A DNA stretch of 19,003 nucleotides from Eledone cirrhosa (taxonomy: Eukaryota). Under the pieces are notes generated by a model that did no database searches, had not been told where the DNA came from, and saw only the letters and a list, made by a program, of their open reading frames with translations. Below, piece by piece: positions 12,828 through 13,917 of the stretch (its first letter is position 1; each line of letters starts with the position of its first letter). The stretch spans positions 1 through 19,003 of the forward strand of contig CAXHJY010001672.1 in the NCBI GenBank assembly GCA_964016885.1, given 5' to 3'. Made by a program: the position numbers and the translations under genes.

Positions 12828-13171
12828 GTATATATATGCAGTGGTGGACTGGGTCTAAAAATATTGGTTGCTAGGAGATGAAGAGGGCCCACCTACATAT
12901 AGAATGCTATCATTTAATTTTTATAATGAATGAATAACATTTTCGAAAAATACATAAGTGGAAACAAAACAGTGCAATCAAACTTTTGCAGAAAAATATC
13001 TTTCCTTCTCCAATAAAAAAAATATTATGTATTTTGCGAAATCCAGAGACTTTCAATAATGACCAGAAGTCGACCCTAGCTCTAGGAAAGCCACGAACAA
13101 CACAACATCTTTTTAACTTTGATTTTGAAAGTAGGTTTATAATTATTAATTTTCATTATACATTTGTAGCT

Positions 13172-13274
13172 GTCTCGATGGCCTAGTTGGAGGAATCATA
13201 GACGGTGGTGATCCTGGTCTGAAGCTCGATCCTTGTTGGGAGTAGGGTTCCCGGTAAACCTTTCCAGTTTTTTT
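13172..13274 (+). ncRNA. tRNA-like Pol III module, left arm (degenerate, not a canonical tRNA)
   Basis: A box TGGCCTAGTTGG 13179-13190, degenerate B box AGCTCGATCC 13223-13232, T7 run 13268-13274. Confidence 0.5.
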
Positions 13275-13290
13275 CTATGGGTTTTAAAAT

Positions 13291-13386
13291 AAAAACTGAA
13301 AAAGGTTACATGTACCTCTTGACTAGGATTGAACCCAATGCCGGGATATCCAACGTCTCTAGTTCCTACCCTTAGGCCACAGAGAC
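13291..13386 (-). ncRNA. tRNA-like Pol III module, right arm
   Basis: A box TGGCCTAAGGGT 13379-13368, B box GGGTTCAATCC 13336-13326, T5 runs at 13303-13299 and 13295-13291. Confidence 0.55.
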
Positions 13387-13917
13387 AACTACGAATATCT
13401 TATGAAAATTCATACTTATAAACCTATTTTCAAAACAAAGTGTTGTGGTGTCGTTCATGTCTTTCTTAATGTTATTGCTCCTATTTAAGGTCGACTTCTA
13501 AATCACTTGGGTGTTCCATACACTACATCCTCGTTTTATTTCTCATCTATCTAGACTATATTTCAATCTTCAATCCATGTTTCATTTCTGTGTGTGTGTC
13601 CACCCCCCACAATCCCCCCCCCCCCCGGTTGACTAAATGCTTTGCTTAATTGTTTTTTTTTTAAATCTTATTCTTTCTCTAAGGTTTCAGGTATTTTTTG
13701 AAAGCAAAGCATTGGCCCCCTAAAATACTACAGTGGGCCCTGCAATGCTACTGTAGGCTCTTGCAATGCTACCGTGAGCCACCTGGGGGCCCACTTGCCA
13801 TTGGGAAACCTGGCAACCAGACCAGCCCGTCACTGTATATATATATATGTACGTGTGTGTGTGTGTCTGTATGTCTTCTACATCTGTATACGTGTTCTAT
13901 AGCATCGTCAAAACAGT

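What the first reader, a model, noticed from the sequence alone, without database searches (positions are those of the whole stretch)
13060..13505. Two convergent tRNA-like Pol III units forming one long palindrome
Seen: each arm has ~110 bp of homologous upstream sequence, then gtctc, an A box, a tRNA-like spacing, a B box and an oligo-T run just before the axis. The arms are clearly diverged, yet box motifs and T runs remain recognisable (the left B box has a T>C change). Neither arm has a SINE body or LINE-derived tail. Inference: a fold-back element whose arms encode ~85-100 nt Pol III RNAs terminating at the centre, or paired TFIIIC sites acting as an insulator. Read-through transcription would give a ~200 bp hairpin. 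I do not recognise this architecture as a named family.
Basis: partly seen in the sequence, partly recalled or inferred. Interest (0 to 1): 0.7.

Follow-up and report, generated by a model that had tools for sequence, protein, structure and literature searches.

The report
Transposon-borne pair of Pol III genes
The palindrome is a face-to-face pair of tRNA-like promoter cassettes from a repeated family whose promoter letters are kept better than the rest, and a small cut-and-paste transposon has carried this pair to an estimated two to three thousand places; the cassettes likely make short RNAs, and this copy is likely a decaying passenger.

Summary
Observation confirmed. The arms are 75% identical. 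Each has a TATA block at -34, A and B boxes 45 nt apart and a T-run. The left B-box change is private to this copy.

The palindrome is not a free-standing fold-back element. It is cargo in a non-autonomous hAT transposon (window 12839-13835; 14-bp TIRs; 8-bp TSDs), with roughly 2,000-2,500 palindromes genome-wide. The arms belong to a wider cassette family in non-coding ~3.5-kb arrays (82 of 87 units in convergent groups) and in arrays near contig ends.

Across 55 diverged array cassettes, B-box, A-box and TATA positions change about half as often as base-matched sites (P<=0.0008). The spacer does not, and no RNA fold covaries. Among transposon copies the boxes decay almost like other sites (P=0.056).

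Best reading: a lineage-specific Pol III gene family, resembling rodent 4.5SH, with one pair captured by a hAT element. Transcription is untested. The scan's unchecked notes record similar tRNA-like cassettes in DNA transposons of other genomes.

The parts
12831..12838 (+). left 8-bp target-site duplication (matches the right one at 7 of 8)
12839..13064 (+). left end of a non-autonomous hAT element, with the 14-bp TIR at 12839-12852; shared with the palindrome-free form up to 13064
   Evidence: loose ends at 13064 continue into the palindrome-free form
13065..13277 (+). left arm: upstream flank plus Pol III cassette
13127..13156 (+). conserved -45..-15 block, with the TATA motif at 13138 (-34)
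13172..13274 (+). left tRNA-like unit: A box 13179-13190, B box 13224-13232 (mutated in this copy), T7 terminator 13268-13274
13299..13386 (-). right tRNA-like unit: A box 13369-13379, intact B box 13326-13334, T5 terminator 13299-13303 (a second T5 at 13291-13295)
13402..13431 (-). right -45..-15 block, with the TATA motif starting at 13420
13285..13499 (-). right arm: upstream flank plus Pol III cassette
13500..13591 (+). rest of the captured ~760-bp segment (truncated here by an internal deletion)
13627..13835 (+). right end of the hAT element, with the TIR at 13822-13835
13836..13843 (+). right 8-bp target-site duplication

Best explanation
The palindrome is a convergent pair of tRNA-like TATA + A box + B box cassettes from a repeated, lineage-specific family, lying as cargo inside a non-autonomous hAT transposon that spread it to an estimated 2,000-2,500 sites; the cassettes are likely RNA polymerase III genes for short RNAs, and this copy is likely a decaying passenger. 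SHOWN: (1) hAT ends and 8-bp TSDs bracket the palindrome, and composites of 0.8-3.1 kb with one to three palindromes carry TSDs around their outer ends; (2) related cassettes (mean 69-73% identity) sit in non-coding ~3.5-kb subunit arrays, nearly always in convergent groups, and in arrays near contig ends; (3) in the arrays the promoter positions change about half as often as base-matched positions, while the spacer, the 3' part and the RNA fold are not constrained. INFERRED: TFIIIC binds the boxes and TFIIIB the TATA block; Pol III starts a few bases upstream of +1 and stops at the central T-runs, giving two RNAs of about 85-105 nt; one pair on a (TA)n-bounded ~760-bp segment became joined to hAT MITE ends and was amplified once, after which copies drifted nearly neutrally. 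What selection keeps in the parent arrays appears to be the promoter (factor binding or the act of transcription) more than the RNA.
For: hAT carrier: 15 of 24 left-right end pairs have at least 7 of 8 matching flanks, 10 of 14 where the left flank is not a TA run; in L123 the outer left end matches (7/8) and the inner does not (2/8); L137 (3,146 bp) matches 8/8. The segment has the same orientation as the nearest hAT module in 53 of 53 cases. Copy number: 40 of 2,713 candidates were scored and all matched; 1,057 exact hits of an 18-nt motif, 0 for the control; 50 of 250 known arms carry it exactly. Parent family; 82 of 87 units in convergent groups. Constraint, 55 non-redundant cassettes: changes per column A key 3.4 vs 8.0 (P=0.0008), B key 3.7 vs 7.9 (P=0.0001), TATA 3.4 vs 8.0 (P<0.0001), spacer 6.9 vs 6.6 (P=0.72); same pattern on 39 cassettes. 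15 of 15 unit-only copies lack the TATA block, and their homology begins between -18 and +7, as expected for copies made from RNA. Passenger: boxes 0.058 vs 0.070 matched substitutions among 125 copies, P=0.056; only minor substructure in the tree of copies.
Against: No transcript or ChIP evidence was obtained. The rest of each 3.5-kb subunit is about as similar between copies (70-90% in aligned windows) as the cassette as a whole, so the arrays may be old repeats with only the promoter peaks standing out. Only 21 of 55 array cassettes keep all A-key, B-key and TATA letters. The unit-only copies show no convincing TSD or poly-A tail and came mostly from a query that itself lacked the upstream block. 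Some segments lie with no hAT module within a 10-kb stretch (7 of 12 chosen for lacking one nearby), so independent mobility is not excluded. No autonomous partner with this exact TIR was seen in 40 hAT-domain stretches. P=0.056 is borderline, so weak constraint in the transposon copies is not excluded. The parent tRNA was not identified.
Confidence: 0.6

Rival explanations
1. The cassettes work mainly as DNA sites: paired TFIIIC/TFIIIB platforms that would act as chromatin boundaries or nuclear anchors in arrays and near chromosome ends, the RNA being a by-product; the hAT element would then have spread ready-made insulators.
For: Promoter letters are kept while spacer, 3' end and fold are not. 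A third lineage keeps the -45..-15 block (95%) with unrelated sequence further upstream (25%), and several members have a duplicated B box. 52 of 89 listed TATA-block hits lie within 1 Mb of a contig end, against 1.1% of sequence. B-box clusters in inverted repeats act as boundaries in fission yeast (PMC6829894, passages).
Against: Keeping a TATA block at fixed distance and T-runs points to transcription, not TFIIIC binding alone. The near-end hits are tandem duplicates at about 8 contig ends, were found with that same block as query, and no telomeric repeats were seen in 15 fetched stretches. Dispersed copies decay.
Confidence: 0.18
2. The cassettes are working parts of an unrecognised selfish element (the ~760-bp segment or the ~3.5-kb subunit), which would need Pol III recruitment for its own spread; constraint then reflects selection among element copies.
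For: The segment has sharp, shared ends at (TA)n, forms head-to-tail tandems and sometimes lies without hAT parts. A second dispersed family here also carries a full tRNA gene with its flanks.
Against: No TIR or Helitron-type termini were seen by eye at the segment ends. Orientation relative to hAT modules is fixed (53 of 53). The arrays hold no transposase or viral protein: among 76 ORFs the only curated-cutoff Pfam hits were LINE-type RT and endonuclease fragments, and frameshifting indels occur throughout.
Confidence: 0.12
3. The units are decayed SINE heads duplicated in inverted orientation and multiplied neutrally; the apparent promoter conservation comes from mutation bias, gene conversion or search bias.
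For: Unit-only copies exist, several next to other SINE-like repeats. Whole subunits are about as conserved as the cassette. No covariation: 301 of 500 shuffles reach the observed score.
Against: The test was base-matched with CpG sites removed and held on cassettes collected by position at a permissive threshold. The kept positions are the canonical box letters at a fixed 45-nt spacing plus a TATA motif at -34. No SINE body or tail follows the units in the arrays.
Confidence: 0.07
4. The pair matters as a source of double-stranded RNA, from read-through across the palindrome or from overlapping convergent transcripts, feeding small-RNA silencing.
For: The 446-nt strand folds into one long hairpin (z -12.9). 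A few array pairs have nearly identical arms (L261, L297).
Against: Any palindrome folds this way. T-runs on both strands stop Pol III before the transcripts overlap. Most arm pairs are 20-30% diverged.
Confidence: 0.03

Closest known systems
Rodent 4.5SH and 4.5SI RNA genes (PMC7279448; passages seen)
   Same: Lineage-restricted ~100-nt Pol III genes with A and B boxes plus a TATA-like box at -31/-24; hundreds of 4.5SH genes each sit in a 4-5 kb tandem unit.
   Different: Here the units come in convergent pairs, are 25-30% diverged from each other, show no conserved fold, and one pair was amplified by a DNA transposon. Expression is untested.
Primate snaR genes (PMC3045588; abstract, outline and section 19 seen)
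   Same: SINE-related Pol III small-RNA family spread by segmental duplication, with retroposed relatives.
   Different: snaR is Alu-derived and demonstrably expressed; no convergent pairs or DNA-transposon capture in the parts seen.
hAT MITEs such as Drosophila Mar and Vege (PMC3517528; passages seen)
   Same: Non-coding, short TIRs, 8-bp TSDs, AT-rich interior unrelated to a transposase.
   Different: This one carries one to three Pol III cassette pairs and has a composite form with two left ends.
Hy/Pol III of Hydromantes and Xenopus satellite 1 (table rows in PMC9659126)
   Same: Tandem repeats built from tRNA-related Pol III promoter sequence.
   Different: From the table rows alone: listed as SINE-derived satellites; nothing seen on paired orientation or an upstream block.
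Fission-yeast IR boundary elements and ETC/COC sites (PMC6829894; passages seen)
   Same: B boxes in inverted repeats.
   Different: Those recruit TFIIIC without Pol III; here A box, TATA block and terminators are present, and no boundary activity is shown.
Cassandra elements carrying 5S genes in their LTRs (recalled; paper not held)
   Same: A non-autonomous transposon carrying Pol III units.
   Different: Plant LTR retrotransposon with a 5S promoter, not a hAT element with tRNA-type promoters.

Membership tests
non-autonomous hAT element | 8-bp target-site duplication | tested here: met
   15 of 24 end pairs at least 7/8; 10 of 14 with non-TA-run left flank
non-autonomous hAT element | short TIRs (5-27 bp), length under 4 kb | tested here: met
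   14-bp TIR; end-to-end lengths 248-3,146 bp (criteria from PMC3517528)
non-autonomous hAT element | autonomous partner with the same ends | tested here: inconclusive
   150 PF05699 matches in the genome; L361 and L373 have TIRs with a similar start, but none of 40 stretches has this element's ends around a transposase
type 2 Pol III small-RNA gene (4.5SH/4.5SI-like) | A and B boxes at tRNA spacing, T-run terminator | tested here: met
   45-nt spacing in both arms and in the array majority; T-runs; the window's left B box is mutated
type 2 Pol III small-RNA gene (4.5SH/4.5SI-like) | conserved TATA-like box about 30 nt upstream | tested here: met
   TATA at -34 from the tRNA-like +1; fewer changes than matched sites; the true start site is unknown
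type 2 Pol III small-RNA gene (4.5SH/4.5SI-like) | Pol III transcript detected | not testable with these tools
   only three contig runs of unknown kind were offered
tRNA gene | cloverleaf with acceptor and anticodon arms | tested here: not met
   ARAGORN: 0 in the window, 0 on the majority sequences at thresholds 100, 90 and 80, 0 in 18 array stretches; no Rfam tRNA hit on a well-kept pair
SINE | element starts at the Pol III start, with body, tail and variable TSD | tested here: not met
   more than 100 bp of shared upstream flank, no body or tail, moved with hAT ends; unit-only copies lack clear TSDs
foldback (FB-type) transposon | long inverted arms form the element's own termini, flanked by a TSD | tested here: not met
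   TSDs flank the hAT ends, not the arms; homology among copies runs past both arm ends
type 3 (U6-like) Pol III gene | upstream element shared with this genome's U6 genes | tested here: not met
   7 of 20 fetched U6 upstream regions read by eye: a TATA motif in several, but not the cassette's block
vault, Y or 7SL RNA | match to the Rfam model | tested here: not met
   no such hit at E<=10 on the window palindrome or L257, none at gathering score in 150 kb of arrays; distant invertebrate members could be missed
pearl / DTC84 tandem-repeat MITEs | AA target duplication; complete A and B boxes absent | tested here: not met
   8-bp TSD and complete boxes here; PMC3879986 passages

The most novel reading that the evidence does not exclude
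This genome has evolved a portable Pol III promoter module (TATA block, A box, B box, terminator) that is kept for recruiting TFIIIC/TFIIIB and not for its RNA. It is deployed as face-to-face pairs in interstitial arrays and near chromosome ends as chromatin boundaries, and a hAT transposon scattered about 2,500 such paired platforms across the genome, reshaping insulator and nuclear-anchor sites.
Probability: 0.15. Interest if true: 0.82.

Novelty: new variant of a known kind. Interest (0 to 1): 0.56.

Why it matters
It points to a Pol III cassette family, not found in the paper searches run here, in a probable octopus genome, with hundreds of array members and a measurable signature of selection on the promoter and not on the RNA. 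That makes a long-standing question testable in one system: whether such Pol III units are kept for their transcripts or as TFIIIC-bound chromatin landmarks. It is also a clean case of a DNA transposon capturing Pol III genes together with their upstream promoter, which retroposition cannot do, so many copies may remain transcribable: 73 of 99 copies ungapped at the boxes keep both boxes in at least one arm. The single copy in this window is probably unimportant.

Tried and rejected
tRNA gene: rejected. Known Rfam family: none (the one gathering-level hit lies away from the cassettes).

Two-hairpin RNA fold proposed from the majority sequence: 77% of cells pair, but covariation equals the shuffles (301 of 500) and RNAalifold gave no structure. 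Not supported.

Coding genes in the arrays: none found. U6-type upstream element: not shared.

Relatives outside this genome: 0 exact hits of one degenerate motif in metagenome contigs and of a shorter one in viral contigs; exact patterns are weak tests.

Expression: no RNA holder listed, which says nothing either way.

Excision footprints of the inner MITE: flanks are mostly microsatellite, so inconclusive. A hAT transposase next to one copy (L361) is a separate nested element.

The strand excess of the 18-nt motif (426 forward, 631 reverse) stays unexplained. The 11-unit array on C13 holds only 6 exact hits, and the parent-type motif gives only 71.

Literature: 10 full-text searches listed no description of this family. 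Repbase and Dfam could not be searched, older cephalopod SINE papers are probably not held, and no supplements were read, so an existing repeat-library entry is not excluded. PMC12730594 had no tRNA passage.

Full report
1. The observation. The palindrome is real: arms 13065-13277 and 13285-13499 match at 151 of 201 columns, score 156 against at most 38 in 1000 shuffles. Each arm has an A box, a B box 45 nt further on and a T-run before the axis, predicting units of about 97-103 nt (left) and 84-88 nt (right) from the tRNA-like +1. Both arms also have a TATA motif at -34. It is not a tRNA and matches no Rfam family. The window is a microsatellite-rich 19-kb contig of a 3.0-Gb animal genome. 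The scan's notes call this genome an octopus; I did not test that.

2. The carrier. A genome search gave 2,713 candidates; all 40 scored matched, the 39 other than the window at 86-91%, nearly all over the whole query. Homology runs from 12839 to 13835 and ends in a 14-bp TIR. Of 24 left-right end pairs in the fetched loci, 15 have at least 7 of 8 matching flanks, and 10 of 14 where the left flank is not a TA run. Short TIRs, 8-bp TSDs and length under 4 kb define hAT elements (PMC3517528, passages). A palindrome-free form of the MITE exists and shares the left end up to 13064. The fullest forms read: left end, palindrome segment, (TA)n, second segment, (TA)n, second left end, right end. TSDs surround the outer ends (L123, 1,712 bp; L137, 3,146 bp with three segments). 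The window copy is an internal-deletion derivative. The segment (~760 bp, bounded by (TA)n, no TIR seen) has the same orientation as the nearest hAT module in 53 of 53 cases, which argues for co-descent and against independent insertion. Against this, 7 of 12 stretches chosen for lacking nearby hAT parts had none within 10 kb. hAT transposase domains are common in the genome, but the exact partner was not found in 40 stretches.

3. Copy number and decay. An 18-nt motif shared by both arms has 1,057 exact hits and its control 0. 71 hits are of the parent type, and 50 of 250 known arms carry the motif exactly. This gives about 2,500 palindromes, or about 2,000 if the unexplained strand excess comes from one array. 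Of the first 30 hits in genome order, 27 lie in this family's context and 3 are unit-only. 125 copies differ from the majority by 5.6% (62 fused to the left end) and 7.4% (51 with the segment's own start), with only minor subfamily structure; these copies were picked by similarity, so the values are low estimates. Boxes mutate at 0.058 against 0.070 for base-matched sites (P=0.056). Of 99 copies ungapped at the boxes, 73 keep both boxes in at least one arm and 25 keep all four. The left B-box change is private to the window copy.

4. Where the pair came from. One motif hit in a different context (L213) led to a wider family. Related cassettes lie in ~3.5-kb subunits that form blocks of roughly 15-25 kb on at least eight contigs, with young duplicates on C24. 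82 of 87 distinct units are in convergent groups. The subunits are non-coding, and hAT modules are essentially absent from them (one partial hit). In a tree of 43 cassettes the window's two arms group with one array cassette (support 87, midpoint root), so they are two paralogous members of this family. The outer ~75 bp at the left and ~150 bp at the right of the segment found no homologue in the arrays, so the exact source locus is not found. A third lineage, found with the TATA block as query (436 exact hits), keeps only -45 to the B box: 95% identity in the block and 25% further upstream in 28 non-redundant of 64 cassettes, several with two B boxes (biased by the query). Of the first 100 hits listed, 11 were dropped because the contig length was not known; 52 of the other 89 lie within 1 Mb of a contig end (1.1% of sequence), as tandem duplicates at about 8 ends. 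No telomeric repeats were seen in 15 stretches.

5. What is conserved. Parsimony changes per column were compared with base-matched, non-CpG columns. On 39 cassettes: B key 1.5 vs 5.0 (P=0.0014), TATA 1.75 vs 4.3 (P=0.005), -45..-15 block P<0.0001, A key P=0.04, whole A box P=0.26, spacer P=0.86, and the 3' part changes faster than average. On 55 non-redundant cassettes from 115 of 138 hits collected by position at a permissive threshold: A key P=0.0008, B key P=0.0001, TATA and block P<0.0001, spacer P=0.72. Columns are not fully independent, so these P values are guides. A two-hairpin fold fits the majority sequence but has no covariation support. The upstream block was not seen before this genome's U6 genes. 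Caveats: the rest of the subunit is about as similar between copies as the cassette overall, and only 21 of 55 cassettes keep all key letters.

6. Indirect sign of transcription. Fifteen unit-only copies all lack the TATA block, and their homology starts between -18 and +7. This fits reverse-transcribed short RNAs, but there is no clear TSD or tail, and most were retrieved with a query lacking the block. No RNA run was available.

7. How it most likely works. Inferred from standard type 2 promoter biology (PMC7279448, passages): TFIIIC binds the boxes, places TFIIIB on the TATA block, and Pol III makes two short RNAs that end at the central T-runs without overlapping. Because the hAT element captured DNA, the upstream promoter travelled with the units, unlike SINE copies. 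The pattern of constraint suggests that the promoter matters more than the RNA in the parent arrays, which keeps the insulator rival alive (PMC6829894, passages). In the dispersed copies, including this one, near-neutral decay points to a passenger.

8. Comparison and novelty. It works like 4.5SH (Pol III genes with a TATA-like box in 4-5 kb tandem units) and snaR (spread by segmental duplication), but belongs to neither. The carrier meets the hAT MITE criteria that could be tested. It is not a tRNA, SINE, FB-type element or pearl-type MITE. Ten paper searches listed no description of it; repeat libraries and supplements were not seen. A sequence look-up in the scan's notes found nothing. A word look-up showed unchecked notes on tRNA-like cassettes in DNA transposons of other genomes; these are leads only and suggest the theme recurs. 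Verdict: new variant of a known kind, interest 0.56.

Noticed in passing
L033, L035-L043 (match at about 1501-1574; shared region about 1170-2900 in the tRNA's orientation): A second dispersed repeat carries a full cloverleaf tRNA (anticodon varies between copies) with ~330 bp of shared upstream flank and a T-run. It starts after (TA)n with a short hairpin and continues into an inverted-repeat module; copies are 92-97% identical.
   Followed up: partly
L228 / L254 (G000:C13 about 34.452 Mb) and G000:C1719 about 175.7-176.2 kb: Small tandem arrays of the unit alone: 11 copies at a 93-95 bp period, and hits at a 79-bp period.
   Followed up: partly
L381-L390 (ends of C8, C10, C13): Near-end tandem units of roughly 10-28 kb, each with a cassette triplet (+,-,+) and LINE-like fragments, near-identical across different contigs.
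   Followed up: partly
L305-L310, L294, L295 (G000:C24 13.81-13.89 Mb): A 35-40 kb segmental repeat containing a cassette block and minisatellites, with relatives at many places on C24.
   Followed up: partly
L200:1448-1548: A left-type unit sits inside the centre of a different short fold-back repeat.
   Followed up: no
L361:3905-6160: A decayed hAT element with transposase remnant, related TIR start and near-matching 8-bp flanks is nested in the internal microsatellite of one copy.
   Followed up: partly
L323-L340 (G000:C19 31.78-31.84 Mb): A tandem array of about 30 U6 snRNA genes at a 1.8-kb period.
   Followed up: no
L032, L034 (G000:C1 about 243.65-243.68 Mb): Cluster of tandem tRNA-Thr genes.
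   Followed up: no
window 8912-9191: 34-bp minisatellite, 8.2 copies.
   Followed up: no
genome-wide: The 18-nt motif shows a strand excess (426 vs 631) that none of the arrays found explains.
   Followed up: partly
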